A DNA stretch of 64,000 nt from the human T2T-CHM13v2.0 reference genome, Homo sapiens, in the NCBI GenBank assembly GCA_009914755.4, contig CP086569.2:61760001-61824000 (forward strand), given 5' to 3'. How positions within the stretch are numbered: the first letter of the stretch is position 1; every line of letters begins with the position of its first letter. The position numbers and the translations under genes are program-made. This document shows, in pieces, positions 1 to 64,000 of this stretch. A model generated the notes under the pieces. It saw only the letters and a program-made list of their open reading frames with translations, had not been told where the DNA came from and did no database searches.

Positions 1-27
1 CGGAATGGAATGCACTCGAATGCAATG

Positions 28-3000
28 GACTCGAAACTAATGGACTGGAATCGAATGGACTCGACTGGTACGGACTCCAATGGAATGGAATCGAATGGAA
101 TGGAATCGAACGGAATGAACTCGAAGTGAAAAGAGTGCAATGGAAAGGTCTCGAATGGAATGGAAATTAATGGAATGGAATGGAATCGAATGAAATGGAG
201 TCAAAAGGAATGGAATCGAATGGCAAGAAATCGAATGTAATGGAATCACAAGGAATGGATGTGAACGGAACGGAATGGAATGGAATCAAAAGGAATGGAA
301 TCGAATGGAATGGACTCGAATGGAAATGACACGAATAGAATGCAATTTAATAAAATAGAATCAAATGTAATGGAATGGAATGGAAAGGAATCGTAACGAA
401 AGGAATGGAGACAGATGGAATGGAATGGAACAGAGAGCAATGGTATAGAATGGAATGGAATCATATGGAATGGAATTGAATGGAATGGAATAATATGAAA
501 TGGAATGGAAAGGAATGGAATGCACTTGAATTAAATGGACTGGAATGGAATGGACTCGAACGGAGTGGAATGGAAAGGATTGAAATAGAATGGAATGGAC
601 TCCTTTGGAATGGTCTAGTATTCAATGCAAACGACTGGCAGGGAATCAAAAGGAATGTAATCGAATGGATTGGACTGGAATACAATGGACTCGAATACGT
701 TGGAAACGGAATGCAATGGAATGGAATGGAATAGTATGCAATGGAACGGAAAGGAATGAAGTAGAATGGACTAGAGTGGAATGGAATGGACTCGAAAGCA
801 ATGGACTGGAATGGAACGATCTTGAATGGACCGGAATCAAACGGAACGGAATGCAATGCAAGGCAATCAAATGGAATGGAATAAAAGAGAATGAAAGAGA
901 ATCAAATGCAATTGAATCGAATGGAATCGAATGGATTGGAAAGGAATAGAATGGAATGGAATGGAATTGACTCCAATGGAATGGACTAGAACGGAATGGA
1001 GTCGAATGGAAGGCAAAGGAATGGAATCTATTGGAATGGACTGTAATGGAATGGCATGGAAGGGATTGGAATGGACTCGAATGGAAAGGACTGCAATAGA
1101 AAGGATTCGAATGGAATGAAAAAGAATTGAATGGAATAGAACAGAATGGAATCAAATCGAATGAAATGGAATGGAATAGAAAGGAATGGAATGAAATGGA
1201 ATGGAAAGGATTCAAATGGAATGCAATCGAATGGAATGCAATAGAATGGAATGGAATCGAACGGAATGGAATAAAATGGAAGGAAACTGGCAAGAAATGG
1301 AATCGAAATGAATGGAGTGTTATGGAACGGACTCCAAAGGAATTGAATGTAATAGAATGGAGTGGAGTGGACTCGAATATAATGGACTGGAATGGAATGG
1401 AATCACATGGAATGGGAACGAATGGAATGGAATGGAAAGGAATGGAATCGAATGGAAAGGAATCAAATGGAAGGGAATGAAATTGAATCAACAGGAATGG
1501 AAGGGAATAGAATAGACTGTAATGGAATGGACTCGAATAGAATGGACACGAATGCTCAAATTGGATGGACTCGAATGGAATGGAAACGAAAGGAATGTCA
1601 TCGAATGGAATTGAATCGATTGGAATGAAATGGCATAGAATGGAGTGGAATGAAATGGAATTGAATCGAAAGGAAAGGAAGCGAATGGACTGAAATGAAA
1701 TGGAATGGAATTGAATGGAAAGTAATGCAATGGAATAGAATGGAACGAAATTTCACGGAATGGAATCAAACAGAATGGAATCAAATCAATGGAATATAAT
1801 CAAATGGAATGGAATGGAATGGAAAGGAATTGAATGGAATAGATTGGATAGGAAGGGATTGGAATGCAATGGAATGGAAAGGACTCGAATTTCATGAAAC
1901 GGAATGGAATGAATTGGAATGGAATGGACTCGAATGGAATGGAATGTCATGGAATGGCATCAAATGGAATGGAATCAAATGGAATGGCATCGAATGCAAT
2001 GGAATGTTATGGAATGGAATGGAATGTATTGGAATGGAATGTCCTCTAATGGAATGGATTCGAGTGGAATGGAATCGAATATAATGGAGTCGAATGAAAT
2101 GGAATTGAAAGGAATGGGATCGAATAGAATGGAATATACTGGAATGTAATGTAATGAAGTCGAATGTAATTGACTGGAATAGAATGTACATGAATGGAAT
2201 GTAATCGAATGGAAAGTAATCCAATGAAATAGAATCTAATGCAATAAAACCGACTCAAATGGAATAGAATGTAATGGAATGGAGTGCAGTGCAATGGAAT
2301 GGAATGGAATGGAATGGAATGGAGTGGAATGGAATGGAATGGGATGGAATGGTATGGAATGGATAGTAAAGGACTGGAGTGAAATGGACTGTAAAGGAAT
2401 GGACTCCAATTGAAAGGGCTCGAAAGGAATGGAGTCAAATGGAATGGTCTGGAATGGAATGAACTCGAATGTAATGCAATCCAATAGAATGGAATCGAAT
2501 GGAATGGAATATAAAGAAATGGAATCGACGAGAATGGAAACAGATGGAATGGAATTGAAAGGAATGGAATTGAATGGAATGGGCATGAATGGAATGAAAT
2601 TGTATGGAATAGAAGAGAATAGAATGGAATGCAATGGATAAGAAAGGAATGGATTGGAATGGAAGGGAATGTAGTGTAATGGACTGGCATGGAATAAACT
2701 GCAATGCTACGGACTCAAATGGAATAAAAATGTATGGAATGGAATGCCATGAAACGGAATCGAATGTCATAGAATGTAATGGAATGCAAAAAAATGGACT
2801 CCAAAATCATTGACTGGAAAGGCTGGGTGTCGAAAGGAATTGACTCCAATGGAATGGAATCGAATGGAACGGAAGTGAATAGAATCGAACTAAATCGAAT
2901 GGAATGGAATTGATAGGAACGGAATGGAAAGGAATGGAATGATTTGGCATGGAATGGAATCGAATGGACTCGAATGGAATGGAATGGAATGCAATGCAAT

Positions 3001-3562
3001 GGAATGTATTAGAATGTAGTGAACTTTAATGGAATGAACTCGAATGGATTCGACTGGAATGGAATGTTCTGGAAGTGAATGGACTCCAATGGAATGGATT
3101 CAAAAGGAATGGAATCGAAGGGAATGGAATCTAATGGAATGGAATGAAATGGAAAGGAATCAAATCGAATAGCACGGAATTGAACTGAATGGAATCGAAT
3201 GCAATGGAATCTAATGAAACGGAAAGGAAAGGAACGGAATGGCATGGAATGGGCTGGAATGGAATGGAATCGAAACGAATGGAAAGGAATCGAACTGAAG
3301 AGACTGGAATGGAATGCACTGGCATGGAAGGGAGTTTAATGGAAGGTTCTCGAAAAGACTGGAATCGAATGCAATGGAATTGAATGGAACGGATATAGAG
3401 TCAAATGGAATTGAATGGAATGGAATGGAGTAGAGTGAAATGGAATCGAGTCACAAGGAATGGACAGGAATAGAACGGTCTCGAATTGAATGGAATCGTA
3501 TGGAATGGAATTCAACGGAATGGAATGGACAGCCACGGAATGGAATGCACTCGAATGCAATG
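28..3562 (+). repeat. HOR unit 1 (3535 bp), subtype I
   Basis: Landmark gactcgaaactaatgg at 28 and next at 3563. Carries subtype-I diagnostic states (gtattcaatgcaaacg at ~620; ctggaatacaatggactcgaatacgttgg at ~675-702). Confidence 0.85.
2786..2837 (+). other. Least pentamer-like segment of the HOR (A7 run plus gctgggtgtcgaaagg); recurs once per unit and could serve as a unit-specific anchor
   Basis: gcaaaaaaatggactccaaaatcattgactggaaaggctgggtgtcgaaagg at 2786-2837. The same segment recurs at about +3535 intervals (6321, 9855, 13389 and so on); the divergent units carry the same block with SNVs. Confidence 0.6.
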
Positions 3563-6500
3563 CACTCGAAACTAATGGACTGGAATCGAATGGACTCGAC
3601 TGGTACGGACTCCAATGGAATGGAATCGAATGGAATGGAATCGAACGGAATGGACTCGAAGTGAAAAGAGTGCAATGGAAAGGTCTCGAATGGAATGGAA
3701 ATTAATGGAATGGAATGGAATCGAATGAAATGGAGTCAAAAGGAATGGAATCGAATGGCAAGAAATCGAATGTAATGGAATCACAAGGAATGGATGTGAA
3801 CGGAACGGAATGGAATGGAATCAAAAGGAATGGAATCGAATGGAATGGACTCGAATGGAAATGACTCGAATAGAATGGAATTCAACAAAATAGAATCAAA
3901 TGTAATGGAATGGAATGGAAAGGAATCAAAACGAAAGGAATGGAGACAGATGGAATGGAATGGAACAGAGAACAATTGTATATAATGGAATGGAATCATA
4001 TGGAATGGAATTGAATGGAATGAAATAATATAAAATGGAATGGAAAGGAATGGAATGCACTTGAATTAAATGGACTGGAATGGAATGGACTCGAACGGAG
4101 TGGAATGGAAAGGATTGAAATAGAATGGAATGGACTCCTTTGGAATGGTCTAGTATGCAATGCAAACGACTGGCAGGGAATCAAAAGGAATGTAATCGAA
4201 TGGATTGGCCTGGAATCAATGGACTCGAATACATTGGAAACGGAATGCAATGGAATGGAATGGAATAGTATGGAATGGAACGGAAAGGAATGAAGTAAAA
4301 TGGACTAGAGTGGAATGGAATGGACTCGAAAGCAATGGACTGGAATGGAACGATCTTGAATGGACCGGAATCAAACGGAAAGGAATGCAATGCAAGGCAA
4401 TCAAATGGAATGGAATAAAAGAGAATGAAAGAGAATCAAATGCAATTGAATCGAATGGAATCGAATGGATTGGAAAGGAATAGAATGGAATGGAATGGAA
4501 TTGACTCAAATGGAATGGACTAGAACGGAATGGAGTCGAATGGAAGGCAAAGGAATGGAATCTATTGGAATGGACTGTAATGGAATGGCATGGAAGGGAT
4601 TGGAATGGACTCGAATGGAAAGGACTGCAATAGAAAGGATTCGAATGGAATGAAAAAGAATTGAATGGAATAGAACAGAATGGAATCAAATCGAATGAAA
4701 TGGAATGGAATAGAAAGGAATGGAATGAAACGGAATGGAAAGGATTCAAATGGAATGCAATCGAATGGAATGCAATCGAATGGAATGGAATCGAACGGAA
4801 TGGAATAAAATGGAAGGAAACTGGCAAGAAATGGAATCGAAATGAATGGAGTGTTATGGAACGGACTCCAAAGGAATTGAATGTAATAGAATGGAGTGGA
4901 GTGGACGCGAACATAATGGACTGGAATGGAATGGAATCACATGGAATGGGAACGAATGGAATGGAATGGAAAGGAATGGAATCGAATGGATAGGAATCAA
5001 ATGGAAGGGAATGAAATTGAATCAACAGGAATGGAAGGGAATAGAATAGACTGTAATGGAATGGACTCGAATAGAATGGACACGAATGCTCAAATTGGAT
5101 GGACTCGAATGGAATGGAAACGAAAGGAATGTCATCGAATGGAATTGAATCGATTGGAATGAAATGGCATAGAATGGATTGGAATGAAATGGAATTGAAT
5201 CGAAAGGAAAGGAAGCGAATGGACTGAAATGAAATGGAATGGAATTAAATGGAAAGTAATGCAATGGAATAGAATGGAACGAAATTTCACGGAATGGAAT
5301 CAAACAGAATGGAATCAAATCAATTGAATATAATCAAATGGAATGGAATGGAATGGAAAGGAAATGAATGGAATAGATTGGATAGGAAGGGATTGGAATG
5401 CAATGGAATGGAAAGGACTCGAATTTCATGAAACGGAATGGAATGAATTGGAATGGAATGGACTCGAATGGAATGGAATGTCATGGAATGGCATCAAATG
5501 GAATGGAATCAAATGGAATGGCATCGAATGCAATGGAATGTTATGGAATGGAATGGAATGTATTGGAATGGAATGTCCTCTAATGGAATGGATTCGAGTG
5601 GAATGGAATCAAATATAATGGAGTCGAATGAAATGGAATTGAAAGGAATGGGATCGAATAGAATGGAATATACTGGAATGTAATGTAATGAAGTCGAATG
5701 TAATTGACTGGAATGGAATGTACATGAATGGAATGTAATCGAATAGAAAGTAATCCAATGAAATAGAATCTAATGCAATAAAACCGACTCAAATGGAATA
5801 GAATGTAATGGAATGGAGTGCAGTGCAATGGAATGGAATGGAATGGAATGCAATGGAGTGGAATGGAATGGAATGGGATGGAATGGTATGGAATGGATAG
5901 TAAAGGACTGGAGTGAAATGGACTGTAAAGGAATGGACTCCAATTGAAAGGGCTCGAAAGGAATGGAGTCAAATGGAATGGTCTGGAATGGAATGAACTC
6001 GAATGTAATGCAATCCAATAGAATGGAATCGAATGGAATGGAATATAAAGAAATGGAATCGACGAGAATGGAAACAGATGGAATGGAATTGAAAGGAATG
6101 GAATTGAATGGAATGGGCACGAATGGAATGAAATTGTATGGAATAGAAGAGAATAGAATGGAATGCAATGGATAAGAAAGGAATGGATTGGAATGGAAGG
6201 GAATGTAGTGTAATGGACTGGCATGGAATAAACTGGAATGCTACGGTCTCAAATGGAATAAAAATGTATGGAATGGAATGCCATGAAACGGAATCGAATG
6301 TCATAGAATGTAATGGAATGCAAAAAAATGGACTCCAAAATCATTGACTGGAAAGGCTGGGTGTCGAAAGGAATTGACTCCAATGGAATGGAATCGAATG
6401 GAATGGAAGTGAATAGAATCGAACTAAATCGAATGGAATGGAATTGATAGGAACGGAATGGAAAGGAATGGAATGATTTGGCATGGAATGGAATCGAATG

Positions 6501-7096
6501 GACTCGAATGGAATGGAATGGAATGCAATGGAATGGAATGTATTAGAATGTAGTGAACTTTAATGGAATGAACTCGAATGGATTCGACTGGAATGGAATG
6601 TTCTGGAAGTGAATGAACTCCAATGGAATGGATTCAAAAGGAATGGAATCGAAGGGAATGGAATCTAATGGAATGGAATGAAATGGAAAGGAATCAAATC
6701 GAATAGCACGGAATTGAACTGAATGGAATCGAATGCAATGGAATCTAATGAAACGGAAAGGAAAGGAATGGAATGGCATGGAATGGGCTGGAATGGAATG
6801 GAATCGAAACGAATGGAATGGAATCGAACTGAAGAGACTGGAATGGAATGCATTGGCATGGAAGGGAGTTTAATGGAAGGTTCTCGAAAAGACTGGAATC
6901 GAATGGAATGGAATTGAATGGAACGGATATAGAGTCAAATGGAATTGAATGGAATGGAATGGAGTAGAGTGAAATGGAATCGAGTCACAAGGAATGGACA
7001 GGAATAGAACGGTCTCGAATTGAATGGAATCGTATGGAATGGAATTCAACGGAATGGAATGGACAGCCACGGAATGGAATGCACTCGAATGCAATG
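3563..7096 (+). repeat. HOR unit 2 (3534 bp), subtype II
   Basis: Subtype-II states: agagaacaattgtatataatgg (~3966), gtatgcaatgcaaacg (~4155), ggattggcctggaatcaatggactcgaatacattgg (~4203-4236, a 1-bp deletion relative to type I). Confidence 0.85.
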
Positions 7097-10000
7097 GACT
7101 CGAAACTAATGGACTGGAATCGAATGGACTCGACTGGTACGGACTCCAATGGAATGGAATCGAATGGAATGGAATCGAACGGAATGAACTCGAAGTGAAA
7201 AGAGTGCAATGGAAAGGTCTCGAATGGAATGGAAATTAATGGAATGGAATGGAATCGAATGAAATGGAGTCAAAAGGAATGGAATCGAATGGCAAGAAAT
7301 CGAATGTAATGGAATCACAAGGAATGGATGTGAACGGAACGGAATGGAATGGAATCAAAAGGAATGGAATCGAATGGAAAGGACTCGAATGGAAATGACT
7401 CGAATAGAATGGAATTCAACAAAATAGAGTCAAATGTAATGGAATGGAATGGAAAGGAATCGAAACGAAAGGAATGGAGACAGATGGAATGGAATGGAAC
7501 AGAGAGCAATGGTATAGAATGGAATGGAATCATATGGAATGGAATTGAATGGAATGGAATAATATGAAATGGAATGGAAAGGAATGGAATGCACTTGAAT
7601 TAAATGGACTGGAATGGAATGGACTCGAACGGAGTGGAATGGAAAGGATTGAAATAGAATGGAATGGACTCCTTTGGAATGGTCTAGTATTCAATGCAAA
7701 CGACTGGCAGGGAATCAAAAGGAATGTAATCGAATGGATTGGACTGGAATACAATGGACTCGAATACGTTGGAAACGGAATGCAATGGAATGGAATGGAA
7801 TAGTATGCAATGGAACGGAAAGGAATGAAGTAGAATGGACTAGAGTGGAATGGAATGGACTCGAAAGCAATGGACTGGAATGGAACGATCTTGAATGGAC
7901 CGGAATCAAACGGAACGGAATGCAATGCAAGGCAATCAAATGGAATGGAATAAAAGAGAATGAAAGAGAATCAAATGCAATTGAATCGAATGGAATCGAA
8001 TGGATTGGAAAGGAATAGAATGGAATGGAATGGAATTGACTCCAATGGAATGGACTAGAACGGAATGGAGTCGAATGGAAGGCAAAGGAATGGAATCTAT
8101 TGGAATGGACTGTAATGGAATGGCATGGAAGGGATTGGAATGGACTCGAATGGAAAGGACTGCAATAGAAAGGATTCGAATGGAATGAAAAAGAATCGAA
8201 TGGAATAGAACAGAATGGAATCAAATCGAATGAAATGGAATGGAATAGAAAGGAATGGAATGAAATGGAATGGAAAGGATTCAAATGGAATGCAATCGAA
8301 TGGAATGCAATAGAATGGAATGGAATCGAACGGAATGGAATAAAATGGAAGGAAACTGGCAAGAAATGGAATCGAAATGAATGGAGTGTTATGGAACGGA
8401 CTCCAAAGGAATTGAATGTAATAGAATGGAGTGGAGTGGACTCGAATATAATGGACTGGAATGGAATGGAATCACATGGAATGGGAACGAATGGAATGGA
8501 ATGGAAAGGAATGGAATCGAATGGAAAGGAATCAAATGGAAGGGAATGAAATTGAATCAACAGGAATGGAAGGGAATAGAATAGACTGTAATGGAATGGA
8601 CTCGAATAGAATGGACACGAATGCTCAAATTGGATGGACTCGAATGGAATGGAAACGAAAGGAATGTCATCGAATGGAATTGAATCGATTGGAATGAAAT
8701 GGCATAGAATGGAGTGGAATGAAATGGAATTGAATCGAAAGGAAAGGAAGCGAATGGACTGAAATGAAATGGAATGGAATTGAATGGAAAGTAATGCAAT
8801 GGAATAGAATGGAACGAAATTTCACGGAATGGAATCAAACAGAATGGAATCAAATCAATGGAATATAATCAAATGGAATGGAATGGAATGGAAAAGAATT
8901 GAATGGAATAGATTGGATAGGAAGGGATTGGAATGCAATGGAATGGAAAGGACTCGAATTTCATGAAACGGAATGGAATGAATTGGAATGGAATGGACTC
9001 GAATGGAATGGAATGTCATGGAATGGCATCAAATGGAATGGAATCAAATGGAATGGCATCGAATGCAATGGAATGTTATGGAATGGAATGGAATGTATTG
9101 GAATGGAATGTCCTCTAATGGAATGGATTCGAGTGGAATGGAATCGAATATAATGGAGTCGAATGAAATGGAATTGAAAGGAATGGGATCGAATAGAATG
9201 GAATATACTGGAATGTAATGTAATGAAGTCGAATGTAATTGACTGGAATGGAATGTACATGAATGGAATGTAATCGAATGGAAAGTAATCCAATGAAATA
9301 GAATCTAATGCAATAAAACCGACTCAAATGGAATAGAATGTAATGGAATGGAGTGCAGTGCAATGGAATGGAATGGAATGGAATGGAATGGAGTGGAATG
9401 GAATGGAATGGGATGGAATGGTATGGAATGGATAGTAAAGGACTGGAGTGAAATGGACTGTAAAGGAATGGACTCCAATTGAAAGGGCTCGAAAGGAATG
9501 GAGTCAAATGGAATGGTCTGGAATGGAATGAACTCGAATGTAATGCAATCCAATAGAATGGAATCGAATGGAATGGAATATAAAGAAATGGAATCGACGA
9601 GAATGGAAACAGATGGAATGGAATTGAAAGGAATGGAATTGAATGGAATGGGCACGAATGGAATGAAATTGTATGGAATAGAAGAGAATAGAATGGAATG
9701 CAATGGATAAGAAAGGAATGGATTGGAATGGAAGGGAATGTAGTGTAATGGACTGGCATGGAATAAACTGGAATGCTACGGTCTCAAATGGAATAAAAAT
9801 GTATGGAATGGAATGCCATGAAACGGAATCGAATGTCATAGAATGTAATGGAATGCAAAAAAATGGACTCCAAAATCATTGACTGGAAAGGCTGGGTGTC
9901 GAAAGGAATTGACTCCAATGGAATGGAATCGAACGGATTGGAAGTGAATAGAATCGAACTAAATCGAATGGAATGGAATTGATAGGAACGGAATGGAAAG

Positions 10001-10631
10001 GAATGCAATGATTTGGCATGGAATGGAATCGAATGGACTCGAATGGAATGGAATGGAATGCAATGCAATGGAATGTATTAGAATGTAGTGAACTTTAATG
10101 GAATGAACTCGAATGGATTCGACTGGAATGGAATGTTCTGGAAGTGAATGGACTCCAATGGAATGGATTCAAAAGGAATGGAATCGAAGGGAATGGAATC
10201 TAATGGAATGGAATGAAATGGAAAGGAATCCAATCGAATAGCACGGAATTGAATTGAATGGAATCGAATGCAATGGAATCTAATGAAACGGAAAGGAAAG
10301 GAACGGAATGGCATGGAATGGGCTGGAATGGAATGGAATCGAAACGAATGGAATGGAATCGAACTGAAGAGACTGGAATGGAATGCACTGGCATGGAAGG
10401 GAGTTTAATGGAAGGTTCTCGAAAAGACTGGAATCGAATGCAATGGAATTGAATGGAACGGATATAGAGTCAAATGGAATTGAATGGAATGGAATGGAGT
10501 AGAGTGAAATGGAATCGAGTCACAAGGAATGGACAGGAATAGAACGGTCTCGAATTGAATGGAATCGTATGGAATGGAATTCAACGGAATGGAATGGACA
10601 GCCACGGAATGGAATGCACTCGAATGCAATG
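7097..10631 (+). repeat. HOR unit 3 (3535 bp), subtype I
   Basis: The landmark period and the translated ORF set match unit 1, with a few private SNVs (for example aagaatcgaatgg at ~8200; aatccaatcgaatagc at ~10229). Confidence 0.85.
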
Positions 10632-13600: not shown

Positions 13601-14165
13601 AATGGAATGTATTAGAATGTAGTGAACTTTAATGGAATGAACTCGAATGGATTCGACTGGAATGGAATGTTCTGGAAGTGAATGAACTCCAATGGAATGG
13701 ATTCAAAAGGAATGGAATCGAAGGGAATGGAATCTAATGGAATGGAATGAAATGGAAAGGAATCAAATCGAATAGCACGGAATTGAACTGAATGGAATCG
13801 AATGCAATGGAATCTAATGAAACGGAAAGGAAAGGAATGGAATGGCATGGAATGGGCTGGAATGGAATGGAATCGAAACGAATGGAATGGAATCGAACTG
13901 AAGAGACTGGAATGGAATGCATTGGCATGGAAGGGAGTTTAATGGAAGGTTCTCGAAAAGACTGGAATCGAATGGAATGGAATTGAATGGAACGGATATA
14001 GAGTCAAATGGAATTGAATGGAATGGAATGGAGTAGAGTGAAATGGAATCGAGTCACAAGGAATGGACAGGAATAGAACGGTCTCGAATTGAATGGAATC
14101 GTATGGAATGGCATCAAACGGAATGGAATGGACAGCCACGGAATGGAATGCACTCGAATGCAATG
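10632..14165 (+). repeat. HOR unit 4 (3534 bp), subtype II variant (I/II recombinant)
   Basis: The upstream part is type-I-like (agagagcaatggtatagaatgg at ~11037). It also has type-II gtatgcaatgcaaacg (~11222) and the 1-bp-deleted ctggaatcaatgg (~11280). Confidence 0.8.
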
Positions 14166-52400: not shown

Positions 52401-53032
52401 GGAATGGAATGATTTGGCATGGAATGGAATCGAATGGACTCGAATGGAATGGAATGGAATGCAATGCAATGGAATGTATTAGAATGTAGTGAACTTTAAT
52501 GGAATGAACTCGAATGGATTCGACTGGAATGGAATGTTCTGGAAGTGAATGGACTCCAATGGAATGGATTCAAAAGGAATGGAATCGAAGGGAATGGAAT
52601 CTAATGGAATGGAATGAAATGGAAAGGAATCAAATCGAATAGCACGGAATTGAACTGAATGGAATAGAATGCAATGGAATCTAATGAAACGGAAAGGAAA
52701 GGAATGGAATGGCATGGAATGGGCTGGAATGGAATGGAATCGAAACGAATGGAAAGGAATCGAACTGAAGAGACTGGAATGGAATGCACTGGCATGGAAG
52801 GGAGTTTAATGGAAGGTTCTCGAAAAGACTGGAATCGAATGGAATGGAATTGAATGGAACGGATATAGAGTCAAATGGAATTGAATGGAATGGAATGGAG
52901 TAGAGTGAAATGGAATCGAGTCACAAGGAATGGACAGGAATAGAACGGTCTCGAATTGAATGGAATCGTATGGAATGGAATTCAACGGAATGGAATGGAC
53001 AGCCACGGAATGGAATGCACTCGAATGCAATG
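49498..53032 (+). repeat. HOR unit 15 (3535 bp), subtype I mosaic
   Basis: Landmark period. Has type-II gtatgcaatgcaaacg (~50090) together with type-I gaatacaatgg. The tail shares unit-1 variants (FIPFMPIPFN, GMGMNG). Confidence 0.8.
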
Positions 53033-56000
53033 GACTCGAAACTAATGGACTGGAATCGAATGGACTCGACTGGTACGGACTCCAATGGAATGGAATCGAA
53101 TGGAATGGAATCGAACGGAATGGACTCGAAGTGAAAAGAGTGCAATGGAAAGGTCTCGAATGGAATGGAAATTAATGGAATGGAATGGAATCGAATGAAA
53201 TGGAGTCAAAAGGAATGGAATCGAATGGCAAGAAATCGAATGTAATGGAATCACAAGGAATGGATGTTAACGGAACGGAATGGAATGGAATCAAAAGGAA
53301 TGGAATCGAATGGAATGGACTCGAATGGAAATGACTCGAATAGAATGGAATTCAACAAAATAGAATCAAATGTAATGGAATGGAATGGAAAGGAATCGAA
53401 ACGAAAGGAATGGAGACAGACGGAATGGAATGGAACAGAGAACAATGGAATATAATGGAATGGAATCATATGGAATGGAATTGAATGGAATGGAATAATA
53501 TAAAATGAAATGGAAAGGAATGGAATGCACTTGAATTAAATGGACTGGAATGGAATGGACTCGAACGGAGTGGAATGGAAAGGATTGAAATAGAATGGAA
53601 TGGACTCCTTTGGAATGGTCTAGTATGCAATGCAAACGACTGGCAGGGAATCAAAAGGAATGTAATCGAATGGATTGGCCTGGAATCAATGGACTCGAAT
53701 AGATTGGAAACGGAATGCAAAGGAATGGAATGGAATAGTGCGGAATGGAATGGAAAGGAATGGAGTGGAATAGACTAGAGAGGAATGGAATGGACTCTAA
53801 AGCAATGGACTGGAATGGAACTTTCTTGAATGGACTGGAATCAAACGGAATGGAATGCAATGCAATCAAATGGCATGGAATAAAATAGAATGAAAGAGAA
53901 TCAAATGGGATTGAATCGAATGGAATCGAATGGATTGGAAAGGAATAGAATGGAATGGAATGGAACTGACTCAAATGGAATGGACTAGAATGGAATGGAG
54001 TCGAATGGAAGGCAAAGGAATAGAATCTATTGGAATGGACTGTAATGGAATGGAATGGAAAGGATTGGAATGGACTCGAATGGAATGGACTGCAATAGAA
54101 AGGATTCGAATGGAATGAAAAAGAATTGAATGGAATAGAACAGAATGGAGTCAAATCGAATGTAACGGAATGGAATTGAAAGGAATGGAAAGAAATGGAA
54201 TGGAAAGGATTCGAATGGAATGCAATCGAAGGGAATGCAATCGAATGGAATGGAATCGAACGGAATGGAATAAAATGGAAGAAAACTGGCAAGAAATGGA
54301 ATCGAAATAAATGGAGTGTTATGGAACGGACTCAAAAGGAATTGAATGTAATAGAATGGAGTGGAGTGGACTCGAATATAATGGACTGGAATGGAATGGA
54401 ATCACATGGAATGGGAACGAATGGAATGGAATGGAAAGGAATGGAATCGAATGGAAAGGAATCGAATGGAAGGTAATGAAATTGAATCAACAGGAATGGA
54501 AGGGAATAGAATAGACTGTAATGGAATGGACTCGAATAGAATGGACACGAATGCTCAAATTGAATGGACTCGTATAGAATGGAAACGAAAGGAATGTCAT
54601 CGAATGGAATTGAATGGATTGGAATGAAATCGCATAGAATGGAGTGGAATCTAATGGAATTGAATTGAAAGTAAAGGAAGCGAATGGACTGAAATGAAAT
54701 GGAATGGAATTGAATGGAAAGTAATGCAATGGAATGGAATGGAACGAAATTTCACGGAATGGAATCAAACAGAATGGAATCAAATCAATGGAATATAATC
54801 AAATGGAATGGATAGGAATTGAATGGAATAGATTGGATTGGAAGGGATTGGAATGCAATGGAATGGGAAGTACTCGAATTTAATGAAACGGAATGGAATG
54901 GACTCGAATGGAATGGAATGTCATGGAATGGCATCAAATGGAATGGCATCAAATGGAATGGAATCGAATGCAATGGAATGTTATGGAATGGAATGGGATG
55001 CATTGGAATGAAATGTCCTCTAATGGAATGGATTCGAGTGGTATGGAATCTAATATAATGGAGTCGAATGAAATGGAATTGAAAGGAATGGGATCGAATA
55101 GAATGGAATATACTGGAATGTAATGTAATGAAGTCGAATGTAATTGACTGGAATTGAATGTACGTGAATGGAATGTAATCGAATGGAAAGTAATCCAATG
55201 GAATAGAATCTAATGCAATAAAATCGACTCGAATGGAATAGAATGTAATGGAATGGAATGCAGTGCAGTGGAACGGAATGGAATGGAATGCAATGGAGTG
55301 GAATGGAATGGAATGGAATGGGATGGAATGGTTTGGAATGGATAGTAATGGACTGGAGTGAAATGGACTGGAAAGGAATGGACTCAAATTGAAAGGGCTC
55401 GAAAGGAATGGAGTCAAATGGAATGATCTGAAATGGAATGAACTCGAATGTAATACAATCCAATAGAATGGAAACAAATGGAATGGAATTGAATGGAATG
55501 GAATTGAATGGAATGGGAACGAATGGAGTGAAATTGTATGGAATAGAAGAGAATAGAATGGAATGCAAGGGAAAGGAAAGGAATGGATTGGAATGGAATG
55601 GAATTCATTGGAATGGAAGGGAATGTAGTGTAATGGACAGGCCTGGAATAAACTGGAATGCTACGGTCTCGAATGGAATAAAAATGTATGGAATGGAATG
55701 CAATGAAACGGAATCGAATGTCATAGAATGTAATGGAATGCAAAAAAATGGACTCCAAAATCATTGACTGGAAAGGCTGGGTGTCGAAAGGAATTGACTC
55801 CAATGGAATGGAATCGAATGGAATGGAAGTGAATAGAATCGAACTAAATCGAATGGAATGGAATTGATAGGAACGGAATGGAAAGGAATGGAATGATTTG
55901 GCATGGAATGGAATCGAATGGCATCGAATGGAATGGAATGGAATGCAATGGAATGGAATGTATTAGAATGTAATGAACTTTAATGGGATGTACTCGAATG

Positions 56001-56520
56001 GATTCGACTGGAATGGAATGTTCTGGAAGTGAATGGACTCCAATGGAATGGATTCGAAAGGAATGGAATCGAACGGAATGGAATCTAATGGAATGGAATT
56101 AAATGGAAAGGAATCAAGTGGAATAGCACGGAATTGAATTGAATGGAATCGAATGCAATGGAATCTAATGAAACGGAAAGGAATGGAATGGAATGGGCTG
56201 GAATGGAATGGGCTGGAATGGAATGGAATCGAAACGAATGGAATGGAATCGAACTGCAGATACTGCAATGGAATGTACTGGAATGCAACGGAGTGTAATG
56301 GAAGGTTCTCGAAAAGAATGGAATCGAATGGAATGCAATGGAATGGAACGGAATAGAGTCGAATGGAATTGAATGGAATGGAATTGACTAGAGTGAAATG
56401 TAATCGAATCACAAGGAATGGACAGGAATAGAATGGTCTCGAATTGAATGGAATCGTATGGAATGGCATCAAACGGAATGGAATGGACAGCCACGTAATG
56501 GAAAGCACTCGAATGCAATG
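53033..56520 (+). repeat. HOR unit 16 (3488 bp), type-II-like start that becomes strongly diverged from ~53.7 kb
   Basis: Landmark at 53033, with the next at 56521 (gagtcgaaactaatgg). Many substitutions and indels relative to all other units; for example, 53701-53830 differs from 4221-4350 at many positions. Confidence 0.8.
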
Positions 56521-59500
56521 GAGTCGAAACTAATGGACTGGAATAGAATGGACTCGACTGGTACGGACTCCAATGGAATGGAATGGAATGGAAGGGAATC
56601 GAACGGAATGGACTCGAAGTGAAAAGACTGCAACGGAAAGGTTTCGAATGGAATGGAAATTAATGGAATGGAATGGAATCGAATGAAATGGAGTCAAAAG
56701 GAATGGAATCGAATGGCAAGGAATCGAATGTAATGGAATCGCAAGGAATGGATGTGAACGGAACGGAATGGAATGGAATCAAAAGGAACGGAATAGAATG
56801 GAATGGAATCGAATGGAAAGGACTCGAATGGAAATCACTTGAATAGAATGAAATTTAATAAAATAGGATCAAATGTAATGGAATGGAATGGAAAGGAATC
56901 GAAACGAAAGGAATGGAGACAGATGGAATGGAATGGAACAGAGAGCAATGATATAGAATGGAATGGAAGCATCTGGAATGGAATTGAATGGAATGGAATA
57001 ATATGATACGGAATGGAATGGAATGGAATGCCCTTGAATTAAATGGACTGGAATGGAATGGACTCGAACAGAGTGGAATGGAAAGTGTTGAAATAGAATG
57101 GAATGGACTCCTTTGGAATGGTCTAGTATGAAATGCAATCGACTGGCAGGGAATCAAAAGGAATGTAATCGAATGGATTGGACTGGAATGCAATGGACTC
57201 GAATAGATAGGAAACGGAATGCAAAGGAATGGAATGGAATAGTATGGAATGGAATGGAAAGGAATGGAGTGGAATAGACTAGAGTGGAATGGAATGGACT
57301 CGAAAGCAATGGACTGGAATGAAACTTTCTTGAATGGACTGGAATCAAACGGAATGGAGTGCAATGCAATCAAAAGGCATGGAATAAAATAGAATGAAAG
57401 AGAATCAAATGGAATTGAATCGAATGGAATCGAATGGATTGGAAAGGAATAGAATGGAATGGAATGGAACTGACTCAAATGGAATGGACTAGAATGGAAT
57501 GGAGTCGAATGGAAGGCAAAGGAATAGAATCTATTGGAATGGACTGTAATGGAATGGAATGGAAGGGATTGGAATGGACTCGAATGGAATGGACTGCAAT
57601 AGAAAGGATTCGAATGGAATGAAAAAGAATTGAATGGAATAGAACAGAATGGAATCAAATGGAATGTAACGGAATGAAATTGAAAGGAATGGAATGAAGT
57701 GGAATGGAAAAGATTCGAATGGAATGCAATCGAAGGGAATGCAATCGAATGGAATGGAATCGAACGGAATGGAATAAAATGGAAGAAAACTGGCAAGAAA
57801 TGGAATCGAAATGAATGGAGTGTTATGGAACGGACTCAAAAGGAATTGAATGTAATAGAATGGAGTGGAGTGGACTCGAATATAATGGACTGGAATGGAA
57901 TGGAATCTCATTTAATGGGAACGAATGGAATGGAATGGAAAGGAATGGAATCGAATGGAAAGGAATCTTATGGAAGGGAAGGAAATTGAATCAACAGGAA
58001 TGGAAGGGAATAGAATAGACTGTAATGGAATGGACTCGAATAGAATGGACACGAATGCTCAAATTGAATGGACTCGTATAGAATGGAAACGAAAGGAAAG
58101 TCATCGAATGGAATTGAATCGATTGGAATGAAATCGCATAGAATGGAGTGGAATCTAATGGAATTGAATCGAAAGTAAAGGAAGCGAATGGACTGAAATG
58201 AAATGGAATGGAATTGAATGGAAAGTAATGCAATGGAATGGAATGGAACGAAATTTCACGGAATGGAATCAAACAGAATGGAATCAAATCAATGGAATAT
58301 AATCAAATGGAATGGATAGGAATTGAATGGAATAGATTGGATTGGAAGGGATTGGAATGCAATGGAATGGGAAGGACTCGAATTTCATGAAACAGAATGG
58401 AATGGACTCGAATGGAATGGAATGTCATGGAATGGCATCAAATGGAATGGCATCAAATGGAATGGAATCGAATGCAATGGAATGTTATGGAATGGAATGG
58501 GATGCATTGGAATGAAATGTCCTCTAATGGAATGGATTCGAGTGGAATGGAATCGAATATAATGGAGTCGAATGAAATGGAATTGAAAGGAATGGGATCG
58601 AATAGAATGGAATATACTGGAATGTAATGGAATGAAGTCGAATGTAATTGACTGGAATGGAATGTATGTGAATGGAATGTAATCGAATGGAAAGTAATCC
58701 AATGGAATAGAATCTAATGCAATAAAATCGACTCGAATGGAATAGAATGGAATGGAATGGAATGCAGTGCAATGGAACGGAATGGAATGGAATGCAATGG
58801 AATGGAATGGAATGGAATGGAATGGAATGGGATGGAATGGTATGGAATGGATAGTAATGGACTGGAGTGAAATGGACTGGAAAGGAATGGACTCAAATTG
58901 AAAGGGCTCGAAAGGAATGGAGTCAAATGGAATGATCGGTAATGGAATGAACTCGAATGTAATGCAATCCAATAGAATGGAAACAAATGGAATGGAATTG
59001 AATGGAATGGAATTGAATGGAATGGGAACGAATGGAGTGAAATTGTATGGAATAGAAGAGAATAGAATGGAATGCAAGGGAAAGGAAAGGAATGGATTGG
59101 AATGGAATGGAATTCATTGGAATGGAAGGGAATGTAGTGTAATGGACAGGCCTGGAATAAACTGGAATGCTACGGTCTCGAATGGAATAAAAATGTATGG
59201 AATGGAATGCAATGAAACGAATCGAATGTCATAGAATGTAATGGAATGCAAAAAAATGGACTTCAAAATCATTGACTGGAAAGGCTGGGTGTCGAAAGGA
59301 ATTGACTCCAATGGAATGGAATCGAATGGAATGGAAGTGAATAGAATCGAACTAAATCGAATGGAATGGAATTGATAGGAACGGAATGGAAAGGAATGGA
59401 ATGATTTGGCATGGAATGGAATCGAATGGCATCGAATGGAATGGAATGGAATGCAATGGAATGGAATGTATTAGAATGTAATGAACTTTAATGAGATGTA

Positions 59501-59750
59501 CTCGAATGGATTCGACTGGAATGGAATGTTCTGGAAGTGAATGGACTCCAATGGAATGGATTCAAAAGGAATGGAATCGAACAGAATGGAATCTAATGGA
59601 ATGGAATTAAATGGAAAGGAATCAAATGGAATAGCACGGAATTGAATTGAATGGAATCGAATGCAATGTAATCTAATGAAACGGAAAGGAAAGGAACGGA
59701 ATGGCATGGAATGGGCTGGAATGGAATGGAATCAAAACGAATGGAATGGA
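53700..59750 (+). repeat. Diverged HSat3 HOR island (about 1.7 units) inside the homogeneous array
   Basis: By eye, roughly 5-10 percent nucleotide divergence plus indels relative to the flanking units, which differ from each other by well under 1 percent. Its two copies resemble each other more than they resemble canonical units. Still a pure pentamer satellite, with no foreign sequence. Confidence 0.75.
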
Positions 59751-60024
59751 ATCGAACTGAAGAGACTGGAATGGAATGCACTGGCATGGAAGGGAGTTTA
59801 ATGGAAGGTTCTCGAAAAGACTGGAATCGAATGGAATGGAATTGAATGGAACGGATATAGAGTCAAATGGAATTGAATGGAATGGAATGGAGTAGAGTGA
59901 AATGGAATCGAGTCACAAGGAATGGACAGGAATAGAACGGTCTCGAATTGAATGGAATCGTATGGAATGGAATTCAACGGAATGGAATGGACAGCCACGG
60001 AATGGAATGCACTCGAATGCAATG
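56521..60024 (+). repeat. HOR unit 17 (3504 bp), diverged variant paralogous to the diverged part of unit 16
   Basis: Shares derived variants with unit 16 at an offset of ~3504 (ORFs 53930..54118 and 57434..57622 translate identically; 53651..54292 and 56855..57796 are homologous). Returns to canonical sequence at ~59.75 kb. Confidence 0.8.
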
Positions 60025-63000
60025 GACTCGAAACTAATGGACTGGAATCGAATGGACTCGACTGGTACGGACTCCAATGGAATGGAATCGAATGGAATGG
60101 AATCGAACGGAATGGACTCGAAGTGATAAGAGTGCAATGGAAAGGTCTCGAATGGAATGGAAATTAATGGAATGGAATGGAATCGAATGAAATGGAGTCA
60201 AAAGGAATGGAATCGAATGGCAAGAAATCGAATGTAATGGAATCACAAGGAATGGATGTGAACGGAACGGAATGGAATGGAATCAAAAGGAATGGAATCG
60301 AATGGAATGGACTCGAATGGAAATGACTCGAATAGAATGGAATTCAACAAAATAGAATCAAATGTAATGGAATGGAATGGAAAGGAATCGAAACGAAAGG
60401 AATGGAGACAGATGGAATGGAATGGAACAGAGAGCAATGGTATATAATGGAATGGAATCATATGGAATGGAATTGAATGGAATGGAATAATATGAAATGG
60501 AATGGAAAGGAATGGAATGCACTTGAATTAAATGGACTGGAATGGAATGGACTCGAACGGAGTGGAATGGAAAGGATTGAAATAGAATGGAATGGACTCC
60601 TTTGGAATGGTCTAGTATGCAATGCAAACGACTGGCAGGGAATCAAAAGGGATGTAATCGAATGGATTGGACTGGAATACAATGGACTCGAATACATTGG
60701 AAACGGAATGCAATGGAATGGAATGGAATAGTATGGAATGGAACGGAAAGGAATGAAGTAGAATGTACTAGAGTGGAATGGAATGGACTCGAAAGCAATG
60801 GACTGGAATGGAACGATCTTGAATGGACCGGAATCAAACGGAACGGAATGCAATGCAAGGCAATCAAATGGAATGGAATAAAAGGGAATGAAAGAGAATC
60901 AAATGCAATTGAATCGAATGGAATCGAATGGATTGGAAAGGAATAGAATGGAATGGAATGGAATTGACTCAAATGGAATGGACTAGAACGGAATGGAGTC
61001 GAATGGAAGGCAAAGGAATGGAATCTATTGGAATGGACTGTAATGGAATGGCATGGAAGGGATTGGAATGGACTCGAATGGAAAGGACTGCAATAGAAAG
61101 GATTCGAATGGAATGAAAAAGAATTGAATGGAATAGAACAGAATGGAATCAAATCGAATGAAATGGAATGGAATAGAAAGGAATGGAATGAAATGGAATG
61201 GAAAGGATTCAAATGGAATGCAATCGAATGGAATGCAATCGAATGGAATGGAATCGAACGGAATGGAATAAAATGGAAGGAAACTGGCAAGAAATGGAAT
61301 CGAAATGAATGGAGTGTTATGGAACGGACTCCAAAGGAATTGAATGTAATAGAAAGGAGTGGAGTGGACTCGAATATAATGGACTGGAATGGAATGGAAT
61401 CACATGGAATGGGAACGAATGGAATGGAATGGAAAGGAATGGAATCGAATGGAAAGGAATCAAATGGAAGGGAATGAAATTGAATCAACTGGAATGGAAG
61501 GGAATAGAATAGACTGTAATGGAATGGACTCGAATAGAATGGACACGAATGCTCAAATTGGATGGACTCGAATGGAATGGAAACGAAAGGAATGTCATCG
61601 AATGGAATTGAATCGATTGGAATGAAATGGCATAGAATGGAGTGGAATGAAATGGAATTGAATCGAAAGGAAAGGAAGCGAATGGACTGAAATGAAATGG
61701 AATGGAATTGAATGGAAAGTAATGCAATGGAATAGAATGGAACGAAATTTCACGGAATGGAATCAAACAGAATGGAATCAAATCAATGGAATATAATCAA
61801 ATGGAATGGAATGGAATGGAAAGGAATTGAATGGAATAGATTGGATAGGAAGGGATTGGAATGCAATGGAATGGAAAGGACTCGAATTTCATGAAACGGA
61901 ATGGAATGAATTGGAATGGAATGGACTCGAATGGAATGGAATGTCATGGAATGGCATCAAATGGAATGGAATCAAATGGAATGGCATCGAATGCAATGGA
62001 ATGTTATGGAATGGAATGGAATGTATTGGAATGGAATGTCCTCTAATGGAATGGATTCGAGTGGAATGGAATCGAATATAATGGAGTCGAATGAAATGGA
62101 ATTGAAAGGAATGGGATCGAATAGAATGGAATATACTGGAATGTAATGTAATGAAGTCGAATGTAATTGACTGGAATGGAATGTACATGAATGGAATGTA
62201 ATCGAATGGAAAGTAATCCAATGAAATAGAATCTAATGCAATAAAACCGACTCAAATGGAATAGAATGTAATGGAATGGAGTGCAGTGCAATGGAATGGA
62301 ATGGAATGGAATGCAATGGAGTGGAATGGAATGGAATGGGATGGAATGGTATGGAATGGATAGTAAAGGACTGGAGTGAAATGGACTGTAAAGGAATGGA
62401 CTCCAATTGAAAGGGCTCGAAAGGAATGGAGTCAAATGGAATGGTCTGGAATGGAATGAACTCGAATGTAATGCAATCCAATAGAATGGAATCGAATGGA
62501 ATGGAATATAAAGAAATGGAATCGACGAGAATGGAAACAGATGGAATGGAATTGAAAGGAATGGAATTGAATGGAATGGGCACGAATGGAATGAAATTGT
62601 ATGGAATAGAAGAGAATAGAATGGAATGCAATGGATAAGAAAGGAATGGATTGGAATGGAAGGGAATGTAGTGTAATGGACTGGCATGGAATAAACTGGA
62701 ATGCTACGGTCTCAAATGGAATAAAAATGTATGGAATGGAATGCCATGAAACGGAATCGAATGTCATAGAATGTAATGGAATGCAAAGAAATGGACTCCA
62801 AAATCATTGACTGGAAAGGCTGGGTGTCGAAAGGAATTGACTCCAATGGAATGGAATCGAATGGAATGGAAGTGAATAGAATCGAACTAAATCGAATGGA
62901 ATGGAATTGATAGGAACGGAATGGAAAGGAATGGAATGATTTGGCATGGAATGGAATCGAATGGCATCGAATGGAATGGAATGGAATGCAATGGAATGGA

Positions 63001-63559
63001 ATGTATTAGAATGTAGTGAACTTTAATGGAATGAACTCGAATGGATTCGACTGGAATGGAATGTTCTGGAAGTGAATGGACTCCAATGGAATGGATTCCA
63101 AAGGAATGGAATCGAAGGGAATGGAATCTAATGGAATGGAATGAAATGGAAAGGAATCCAATCGAATAGCACGGAATTGAATTGAATGGAATCGAATGCA
63201 ATGGAATCTAATGAAACGGAAAGGAAAGGAACGGAATGGCATGGAATGGGCTGGAATGGAATGGAATCGAAACGAATGGAATGGAATCGAACTGAAGAGA
63301 CTGGAATGGAATGCACTGGCATGGAAGGGAGTTTAATGGAAGGTTCTCGAAAAGACTGGAATGGAATGGAATGGAATTGAATGGAACGGATATAGAGTCA
63401 AATGGAATTGAATGGAATGGAATGGAGTAGAGTGAAATGGAATCGAGTCACAAGGAATGGACAGGAATAGAACGGTCTCGAATTGAATGGAATCGTATGG
63501 AATGGAATTCAACGGAATGGAATGGACAGCCACGGAATGGAATGCACTCGAATGCAATG
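60025..63559 (+). repeat. HOR unit 18 (3535 bp), subtype I mosaic
   Basis: Landmark at 60025 and 63560. Canonical apart from SNVs. The tail shares variants with units 3 and 13 (aatccaatcgaatagcacggaattgaattgaatgg at ~63169) and with the diverged island (atggcatcgaatgg at ~62963). Confidence 0.8.
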
Positions 63560-64000
63560 GACTCGAAACTAATGGACTGGAATCGAATGGACTCGACTGG
63601 TACGGAGTCCAATGGAATGAAATCGAATGGAATGGAATCGATCGGAATGGACTCGAAGTGATAAGAGTGCAATGGAAAGGTCTCGAATGGAATGGAAATT
63701 AATGGAATGGAATGGAATCGAATGAAATGGAGTCAAAAGGAATGGAATCGAATGGCAAGAAATCGAATGTAATGGAATCACAAGGAATGGATGTGAACGG
63801 AACGGAATGGAATGGAATCAAAAGGAATGGAATCGAATGGAATGGACTCGAATGGAAATGACTCGAATAGAATGGAATTCAACAAAATAGAATCAAATGT
63901 AATGGAATGGAATGGAAAGGAATCGAAACGAAAGGAATGGAGACAGATGGAATGGAATGGAACAGAGAGCAATGGTATATAATGGAATGGAATCATATGG
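63560..64000 (+). repeat. HOR unit 19 (partial, first 441 bp)
   Basis: Landmark gactcgaaactaatgg at 63560; the window ends inside the unit. Confidence 0.8.

What the first reader, a model, noticed from the sequence alone, without database searches (positions are those of the whole stretch)
1..64000. Entire window is an HSat3 (GGAAT)n array with a 3,534/3,535-bp higher-order repeat, probably Y-chromosome DYZ1
Seen in sequence: 18 complete tandem units are delimited by a recurring landmark (gactcgaaactaatgg). Unit lengths are 3535, 3534, 3535, 3534, ..., 3520, 3534, 3535, 3488, 3504, 3535, and canonical units are more than 99 percent identical to one another. Established knowledge: DYZ1 on Yq12 is an HSat3 pentamer satellite with a ~3.5-3.6-kb unit, whereas other large HSat3 arrays (9q12, D15Z1) have different unit structures. 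No genes are expected or seen.
Basis: partly seen in the sequence, partly recalled or inferred. Interest (0 to 1): 0.5.

Follow-up and report, generated by a model that had tools for sequence, protein, structure and literature searches.

The report
Diverged DYZ1-family satellite III array
The whole window is ordinary human-type satellite III heterochromatin of the Y-chromosome DYZ1 family, but it is a roughly 4-6% diverged 3,535-bp variant, not the standard 3,569-bp DYZ1 repeat, and its chromosomal position could not be proven with the tools available.

Summary
The whole window is a one-stranded (GGAAT)n-derived satellite. A landmark delimits 18 tandem units with exactly the reported lengths.

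The DYZ1 interpretation is only partly right. Of the 14 Altemose subfamily-diagnostic 24-mers, only the HSat3A6 (=DYZ1) one matches exactly, once per unit in 14 units. The unit is colinear over its full length with canonical DYZ1.

I recovered canonical DYZ1 as human contamination in bacterial assemblies. One contig collapses to a period of 3,569 bp and carries the classical sexing primers exactly, 154 bp apart. Against it the window's unit shows:
- 95.7% substitution identity;
- nine indels;
- no copy of the single EcoRI and HaeIII sites that define classical DYZ1;
- two new EcoRI sites.

A block of about 6.1 kb (53.7-59.8 kb) is a third unit type. It keeps the classical sites and groups with DYZ1.

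Units of 3,535 and 3,534 bp alternate, giving a 7,069-bp super-repeat. No genes, tRNAs or Rfam RNAs were found.

The most likely origin is a diverged boundary array of human Yq12, which published Y assemblies describe in general terms. An autosomal or non-human origin is not excluded. This is a known kind of sequence and of low interest.

The parts
1..64000 (+). Uninterrupted HSat3 (GGAAT-rich strand) array of the HSat3A6/DYZ1 family. It holds 18 complete units plus partial units at 1-27 and 63560-64000.
   Evidence: Landmark spacing; composition and skew; HSat3A6 24-mer.
28..31838 (+). Units U1-U9: 3,535-bp 'A' and 3,534-bp 'B' units in strict alternation, forming a 7,069-bp dimer super-repeat. 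U1 and U5 are identical. U2, U6 and U8 differ by 1-4 bases.
   Evidence: Pairwise table; exact repeats at lags 7,069, 14,138 and 21,207. B units lack one A at unit offset ~654, e.g. window 4217.
31839..42443 (+). Units U10-U12: three consecutive A-type 3,535-bp units. U10 and U11 are the closest to the consensus, with 4 differences each.
42444..53032 (+). Units U13-U15. U13 is A-type with a 15-bp deletion at 44375 (3,520 bp), U14 is B-type, and U15 is A-type.
53700..59830 (+). Block of a different unit type, about 1.75 units long, which explains the 3,488- and 3,504-bp units. It is 95.4% identical to the window consensus and 96.5-97.0% identical to canonical DYZ1. The boundaries are approximate, to about 100-300 bp.
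   Evidence: Difference density per 100 bp; three-way site patterns, with 93-99 sites where the window type alone differs; identities.
55504..55657 (+). Classical DYZ1 154-bp primer interval. Y1.2 matches exactly and Y1.1 has 1 mismatch. It contains EcoRI at 55601 and HaeIII/StuI at 55640.
59013..59166 (+). Second copy of the classical 154-bp interval, with EcoRI at 59110 and HaeIII/StuI at 59149.
6104..6237 (+). Example of the window-type version of the same interval. It is 134 bp long, the primers have 1 and 3 mismatches, and there is no EcoRI or HaeIII site. It recurs once per window-type unit.
7445..7468 (-). Example of the HSat3A6-specific 24-mer TCGTTTCGATTCCTTTCCATTCCA. There are 14 exact copies, at most one per unit, at unit offset 348-363.
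60025..63559 (+). Unit U18: the 3,535-bp window type resumes after the divergent block.

Best explanation
The window is non-coding constitutive-heterochromatin satellite DNA: a human satellite III array of the HSat3A6 (DYZ1) family.

Its higher-order unit is a diverged derivative of the DYZ1 unit. It measures 3,535 bp against the modal 3,569 bp, with about 4.3% substitutions, nine indels that are mostly multiples of five, and loss of the classical EcoRI and HaeIII sites.

The most likely source is one of the older, less homogenised DYZ1 arrays at the proximal or distal boundary of human Yq12.

The array has no gene-like function. It evolves by replication slippage in pentamer register and by unequal sister-chromatid exchange and gene conversion. 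These processes spread variants locally, and here they produced the A/B dimer of 7,069 bp and multi-kilobase exact duplications. They also left a ~6-kb relic or import of a second unit type closer to classical DYZ1.

Shown here: the structure, the family assignment and the divergence from canonical DYZ1. Inferred: the Yq12 location, the human origin and the exchange mechanism.
For: Structure.

Family:
- Only the HSat3A6 24-mer hits exactly.
- 36-40% of each unit's 24-mers are shared with canonical DYZ1 contig L010.
- The unit is colinear with L010 over its full length.
- GC of 38.9% and one CpG per 34 bp match the DYZ1 figures of 38% and 1 per 35 bp in Hallast et al..

Canonical reference:
- L010 collapses to a period of 3,569 bp, the modal DYZ1 fragment in Hallast et al..
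- It holds both Kogan primers exactly, 154 bp apart.
- It has single EcoRI and HaeIII sites 39 bp apart.
- 8 of 10 independent contaminant contigs are 97-100% identical to it, and none is closer to the window type.

Yq12 periphery:
- Hallast et al. report DYZ1 units of 1,165-3,608 bp (mean 3,543 among those longer than 3,000 bp), HaeIII fragments of up to more than 200 kb inside DYZ1 arrays, and less consensus-like units in the proximal and distal boundary arrays.
- T2T-Y reports higher divergence in peripheral blocks.
- hg19 BAC RP11-242E13, at the distal edge of the Yq12 gap, holds 91 kb of HSat3A6.
- A unit type closer to classical DYZ1 is embedded in the same array.

Mechanism:
- Eight of the nine indels against DYZ1 are multiples of 5 bp.
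- Exact repeats of 3.5-4.5 kb lie at multiples of 7,069 bp.
- Both Y papers attribute Yq12 dynamics to unequal exchange.
Against: - No human or primate genome could be searched, so neither the chromosome nor the species was tested directly.
- The window type was not found elsewhere. A window-specific 27-mer found only three metagenome contigs, at 75-82% identity, and none in IMG/VR. Window ORFs have no exact counterpart and no close one (best hit 50% identity) in the protein collections.
- Altemose 2014 lists chromosome 7 as a minor HSat3A6 location, at 94 kb.
- At about 92-94% overall identity, the window is well outside the '>98%' reported for most Yq12 DYZ1 units.
Confidence: 0.62

Rival explanations
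1. It is an autosomal HSat3A6-like array, for example the ~94 kb of HSat3A6 that Altemose 2014 assigned to chromosome 7. It would derive from an old exchange with the Y and would have diverged since.
For: - Table 1 and Table S7 of Altemose 2014 list 94 kb [82-107] of 3A6 on chr7.
- The chr7 pericentromere does hold HSat3.
- Altemose 2021 says 3A6 is 'almost entirely', not entirely, on the Y.
- An array of that size would accommodate a 64-kb window, and 4-6% divergence from DYZ1 would suit a separated copy.
Against: - In the same table chr7 also shows 6 kb of the other Y-specific family, 3A3. The ratio to 3A6 is close to the Y's own (1:16 against 1:22), which is what about 1% carry-over of Y DNA in the sorted library would give (my inference).
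- No chr7 clone in hg19 was assigned 3A6.
- The embedded DYZ1-like block is more simply explained by residence among DYZ1 arrays.
Confidence: 0.18
2. It is canonical Yq12 DYZ1 as classically defined.
For: Same family 24-mer, similar unit length, and the same GC and CpG density.
Against: - The unit is 3,535 bp, not 3,569 bp.
- Against the canonical unit it has 150 substitutions and 9 indels.
- Both defining restriction sites are missing, and the Kogan interval is 134 bp with mismatched primers.
- All near-full contaminant DYZ1 contigs are of the 3,569/3,574-bp type.
Confidence: 0.03
3. It is a DYZ1-related satellite array from a non-human great ape genome.
For: (AATGG)n satellites lie on the Y of orangutan, gorilla, chimpanzee and bonobo (Cechova 2019). 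A divergence of 4-6% from human DYZ1, with the higher-order unit conserved, would be compatible with an orthologous or paralogous ape array.
Against: - A 24-mer derived from human reads matches exactly in 14 units.
- A 23-mer human sexing primer matches exactly in the embedded block, with the human 154-bp spacing.
- The ape sex-chromosome paper highlights StSat/pCht, HSat1A and alpha-satellite expansions rather than a DYZ1-like array.
- Nothing here tests this positively.
Confidence: 0.1
4. The variant structure is an assembly artefact, i.e. a mis-assembled or collapsed DYZ1 region.
For: Satellite arrays are prone to mis-assembly. Identical units (U1 = U5) could reflect collapse or duplication errors.
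Against: - The differences from canonical DYZ1 are fixed in all 16 window-type units and include nine consistent indels and restriction-site changes.
- The units carry a structured hierarchy of shared variants: 134 variable columns in nested patterns. This is what real arrays show, and it is not error noise.
Confidence: 0.04

Closest known systems
DYZ1 / HSat3A6 (human Yq12, modal unit 3,569 bp; Nakahori 1986 clone 3,564 bp)
   Same: - Pentamer (GGAAT/CATTC)-derived nested tandem repeat.
- The unit is colinear over its full length.
- It shares the diagnostic HSat3A6 24-mer and the same 15-bp sub-period.
- GC is 38.9% and there is about one CpG per 34 bp.
- It forms a long head-to-tail array.
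   Different: - The unit is 34-35 bp shorter.
- It has 4.3% substitutions and 9 indels.
- It lacks the single EcoRI and HaeIII sites and has new EcoRI sites at offsets 315 and 3480.
- The sexing-primer interval is 134 bp, not 154 bp.
- It is organised as 7,069-bp A/B dimers.
Boundary (proximal/distal) DYZ1 arrays of Yq12 described by Hallast et al. 2023 and Rhie et al. 2023
   Same: They are described as less similar to the DYZ1 consensus and less homogenised. They show variable unit lengths and large HaeIII fragments.
   Different: The papers available here give no sequence or unit length for those arrays, so identity with the window is inferred and not shown.
The 2.7-kbp repeat of the Yq11/Yq12 transition zone (Hallast et al. 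2023)
   Same: It is also a DYZ1 derivative: 77% of its unit is 97% identical to DYZ1.
   Different: Its unit is 2.7 kb and is a DYZ18/DYZ1 chimera. The window's unit is 3.5 kb and matches DYZ1 along its whole length.
D15Z1 / HSat3A5 (chromosome 15, KpnI 1.8/3.6 kb)
   Same: It is HSat3 with a multi-kilobase unit of similar size.
   Different: The window has no KpnI site, and the HSat3A5 24-mer has no hit at 0 or 1 mismatch.

Membership tests
Human satellite III (HSat3) | Derived from tandem (CATTC/GGAAT)n pentamers, with strong strand asymmetry. | tested here: met
   Exact GGAAT words cover 33% of the bases, and ATTCC occurs twice. GC skew is +0.52 to +0.60 throughout, and the 5/10/15-bp lags dominate.
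HSat3A6 subfamily (Altemose 2014) | [quoted passage not shown] | tested here: met
   Only the single most common 24-mer of each of the 14 subfamilies could be tested. 3A6 gave 14 exact hits and all the others gave 0. The full list of 2,696 3A6 24-mers is not held, because the stored file is cut within 2A1.
DYZ1 (classical definition) | A ~3.56-kb unit, modal 3,569 bp, released by a single HaeIII or EcoRI site per unit. | tested here: not met
   The unit is 3,535/3,534 bp. The window has only six GGCC sites in total, and none lies at the DYZ1 position in window-type units. EcoRI cuts at offsets 315 and 3480 instead. Only the two units U16 and U17 keep the classical pair of sites. The reference L010 has one of each, 39 bp apart.
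DYZ1 (classical definition) | A 154-bp product with the Kogan Y1.1/Y1.2 sexing primers. | tested here: not met
   Window-type units give a 134-bp interval with 1 and 3 primer mismatches. The 154-bp interval is present only at 55504-55657 and 59013-59166. The primer sequences are recalled from memory, but they match L010 exactly at 154 bp.
DYZ1 (sequence family) | More than 98% identity to the DYZ1 consensus for the vast majority of units (Rhie et al.). | tested here: not met
   Identity to canonical contig L010 is 95.7% counting substitutions only and 91.8-94.5% overall.
DYZ1 (location) | Male-specific, located in Yq12 and interspersed with DYZ2/HSat1B blocks. | not testable with these tools
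   No human assembly or sexed read set is searchable here, and the window contains no DYZ2 or other flank.
D15Z1 / HSat3A5 | KpnI 1.8/3.6-kb unit and HSat3A5-specific 24-mers. | tested here: not met
   No KpnI site. The 3A5 24-mer has 0 hits at 0 or 1 mismatch.

The most novel reading that the evidence does not exclude
The 3,535-bp unit may be a discrete sub-family of DYZ1 that has not been described by name. It lacks the classical EcoRI and HaeIII sites and is organised in 7,069-bp dimers. It could mark an old, poorly homogenised layer of Yq12, or an autosomal offshoot. Because standard DYZ1 restriction and PCR assays would miss it, it could serve as a marker for reconstructing how the Yq12 heterochromatin was built.
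Probability: 0.2. Interest if true: 0.3.

Novelty: already known. Interest (0 to 1): 0.12.

Why it matters
It matters little for biology. HSat3/DYZ1-type heterochromatin is fully assembled in T2T-Y and in dozens of other Y assemblies, and diverged boundary arrays are already reported.

The practical points are three:
- A ~3.5-kb HSat3 unit is not sufficient to call canonical DYZ1.
- This variant would be invisible to the classical EcoRI/HaeIII and 154-bp PCR definitions of DYZ1.
- Sequence of this kind yields long spurious ORFs and is a common contaminant of microbial assemblies.

Tried and rejected
- Simple base-match autocorrelation. It peaks at 7,069 and 3,535 bp, but 1-bp phase shifts blur it, so I used unit alignment instead.
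- The full Altemose 24-mer list. The stored file is truncated within subfamily 2A1, so only the Table 1 24-mers were usable.
- Literature check of the Kogan primer strings. They are not in the held library, so I validated them in silico against L010.
- Nakahori 1986 (PMC311781) and the Nature version of Hallast et al. are not held.
- Exact look-up of two window ORFs, and one homologous-protein search, to trace the source record or other copies. These returned nothing useful: one hit at 50% identity.
- A window-specific 27-mer. In metagenome contigs it found only three distant (75-82%) relatives, and in IMG/VR it found none.
- Polarising window-versus-DYZ1 differences with those three contigs. 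Two of them side with the window about 2:1. I do not rely on this, because they were selected with a window-specific marker.
- A first rotation of L010 to the landmark was wrong by 295 bp. It was corrected.
- D15Z1, DYZ18 and the 2.7/3.1-kb transition repeats were considered and rejected on unit length, 24-mers and full-length colinearity with DYZ1.
Full report
**Observation.** The + strand is a continuous GGAAT-rich satellite.
- Composition is A 26,029, G 19,372, T 13,100 and C 5,499.
- Exact GGAAT words cover 33% of the bases, while ATTCC occurs twice.
- GC content and both skews are flat across all 64 kb.

The 16 'canonical' units differ pairwise by 0-43 substitutions, which is 98.8-100% identity.

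**Finer structure.** The 3,535-bp and 3,534-bp units are two sequence types.
- B units (U2, U4, U6, U8, U14) lack one A at unit offset ~654 and share further private substitutions.
- A and B alternate from 28 to 31,838. The true local period there is 7,069 bp.
- The longest exact repeats are 4,502 bp at lag 7,069, 4,479 bp at lag 21,207 and 3,562 bp at lag 14,138. U1 and U5 are identical.
- U13 carries a 15-bp deletion at 44,375.
- The short units of 3,488 and 3,504 bp are not eroded copies. A block from about 53,700 to 59,830 is a different unit type, 95.4% identical to the window consensus, with 7-8 indels.
- Inside the unit the 15-bp lag is stronger than the 5-bp lag.

**No genes.** There are no tRNAs, no Rfam family at gathering score and no Pfam domain at its cut-off. 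The minus-strand ORFs of up to 376 aa are pentapeptide-periodic translations of the satellite. They give only sub-threshold Pentapeptide_4 and Extensin_1 scores.

**Family.** Altemose et al. [quoted passage not shown]
- Only the HSat3A6 24-mer matches the window exactly: 14 times, at most once per unit, at a fixed phase.
- The other 13 have no exact hit.
- HSat3A6 is the subfamily of the DYZ1 clone of Nakahori 1986.
- D15Z1/HSat3A5 also has a 1.8/3.6-kb unit, so unit length alone does not discriminate. It is excluded by its 24-mer and by the absence of KpnI sites.

**A canonical DYZ1 reference.** No human genome is searchable here. I therefore scanned the bacterial and archaeal genome collection for the HSat3A6 24-mer and recovered ten contigs that are evidently human contaminants. 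The T2T-Y paper documents this phenomenon for HSat3 and HSat1B.
- L010 (3,604 bp) has a 35-bp terminal overlap, so it is a collapsed tandem of period 3,569 bp. L001 has a period of 3,574 bp.
- 3,569 bp is exactly the modal DYZ1 HaeIII fragment reported by Hallast et al..
- The two classical DYZ1 sexing primers match L010 with zero mismatches, 154 bp apart. I recalled their sequences from memory and could not find the strings in the held literature. Kogan 1987 is cited as the DYZ1 assay in PMC3776702.
- L010 has one EcoRI and one HaeIII/StuI site, 39 bp apart.
- Eight of the ten contaminant contigs are 97-100% identical to L010, and none is closer to the window.

L010 is therefore a sound proxy for canonical DYZ1.

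**Window versus canonical DYZ1.** The 3,535-bp window consensus aligns with L010 along its full length.
- There are 150 substitutions (95.7% identity) and nine indels: +15, +5, -5, -15, -10, +25, +45, -25 and -1. All but one are multiples of five.
- Overall identity is 91.8-94.5%, depending on the aligner.
- Only 36-40% of each unit's 24-mers occur in L010.
- Window-type units lack the DYZ1 EcoRI and HaeIII sites. EcoRI cuts instead at offsets 315 and 3480.
- Their primer interval is 134 bp, with 1 and 3 mismatches.
- Base composition and CpG density (38.9% GC, one CpG per 34 bp) equal the published DYZ1 values.
- Rhie et al. state that most DYZ1 units are more than 98% identical.

The window is thus a diverged member of the DYZ1 family, not the DYZ1 repeat as classically or currently defined.

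**The embedded block.** The block at about 53.7-59.8 kb has these properties:
- It keeps the classical EcoRI (55,601; 59,110) and HaeIII/StuI (55,640; 59,149) sites.
- It keeps the 154-bp primer interval, with Y1.2 exact and Y1.1 at one mismatch.
- It shares several indel states with L010.
- It is 96.5-97.0% identical to L010.
- In three-way comparisons there are 93-99 sites where the window type alone differs, against 45-65 for either of the others. The block therefore groups with canonical DYZ1.

Two unit types thus coexist in one array. This is most simply explained if the array lies among DYZ1 arrays, but it is not proof.

**Location.** Published Y assemblies describe:
- DYZ1 units of 1,165-3,608 bp, with a mean of 3,543 among those longer than 3 kb;
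- HaeIII fragments of up to more than 200 kb within DYZ1 arrays;
- units less like the consensus in the proximal and distal boundary arrays of Yq12, and similarly in T2T-Y.

In hg19 the BAC at the distal edge of the Yq12 gap, RP11-242E13, contains 91 kb of HSat3A6. A boundary Yq12 array is therefore my best estimate (0.62).

The main rival is an autosomal copy. Altemose 2014 assign 94 kb of HSat3A6 to chr7, and chr7 does carry HSat3. However, the same table gives chr7 6 kb of the other Y-specific family, 3A3, in nearly the Y's own ratio.

A non-human ape origin is not excluded, but nothing here positively supports it.

Attempts to find the window type elsewhere failed. A window-specific 27-mer hit three metagenome contigs of only 75-82% identity and no IMG/VR contig. 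ORF look-ups and one protein search gave nothing.

**Mechanism.** This is constitutive-heterochromatin satellite DNA with no coding or structured-RNA content.
- Pentamer-register indels point to replication slippage.
- The nested sharing of variants among units (134 variable columns), the A/B dimer and the multi-kilobase exact repeats at multiples of 7,069 bp are the expected products of unequal sister-chromatid exchange and gene conversion. Both Y-chromosome papers invoke these processes for Yq12.

These steps are inferred from pattern and were not observed.

**Verdict.** This is a known kind of sequence and of low interest.

Noticed in passing
window 28-31838: Units of 3,535 and 3,534 bp are two sequence types in strict alternation, so the local period is 7,069 bp. 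Exact repeats reach 4,502 bp at lag 7,069, and U1 and U5 are identical.
   Followed up: yes
window ~53700-59830: An embedded block of about 1.75 units of a third unit type keeps the classical DYZ1 EcoRI and HaeIII/StuI sites and the 154-bp primer interval. It groups with canonical DYZ1, not with the surrounding units.
   Followed up: yes
L010 (CAYVXY010000078.1, Polyangiaceae MAG) and L001 (BMRF01000076.1, Actinomadura cremea JCM 3308); also L002-L009: Contigs in public bacterial and archaeal assemblies are collapsed human DYZ1 units, with periods of 3,569 and 3,574 bp. They are human male DNA contamination of the kind reported in the T2T-Y paper.
   Followed up: partly
L011 (OUNP010003001.1), L012 (SKEQ01019505.1), L013 (OLKE01006545.1): These metagenome contigs share a window-specific 27-mer and are colinear with the DYZ1 unit over 1-2.4 kb, but at only 75-82% identity. 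They carry none of the 14 subfamily 24-mers. They may be an unidentified HSat3 relative, non-human host DNA or chimeric short-read assemblies.
   Followed up: partly
Altemose 2014 Table S7: Chromosome 7 is credited with 94 kb of HSat3A6 and also 6 kb of HSat3A3, the two Y-specific families, in about the Y's own ratio. This suggests roughly 1% Y carry-over in the flow-sorted chr7 library, not a real chr7 array.
   Followed up: no
window, whole; consensus unit: The 15-bp lag gives a higher match fraction (0.69) than the 5- or 10-bp lags (0.64), both in the window unit and in canonical DYZ1 (L010). This indicates an old 15-bp sub-repeat layer.
   Followed up: partly
window 4207, 18345, 25414, 53677: A HaeIII site at unit offset 644 is present only in units U2, U6, U8 and U16. 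U16 also lacks the A at offset ~654, so it begins as a B-type unit before the divergent block starts.
   Followed up: partly
window 39242-40372 (-) and about 118 other ORFs ≥110 aa: Long minus-strand ORFs (up to 376 aa) are translations of the pentamer satellite. They give sub-threshold Pfam hits (Pentapeptide_4, Extensin_1), and a prokaryotic gene caller could report them as spurious proteins.
   Followed up: yes
window 44375: A 15-bp deletion (ATCAAATGGAATGGA) is private to unit U13, which also has the most private substitutions among the window-type units.
   Followed up: partly
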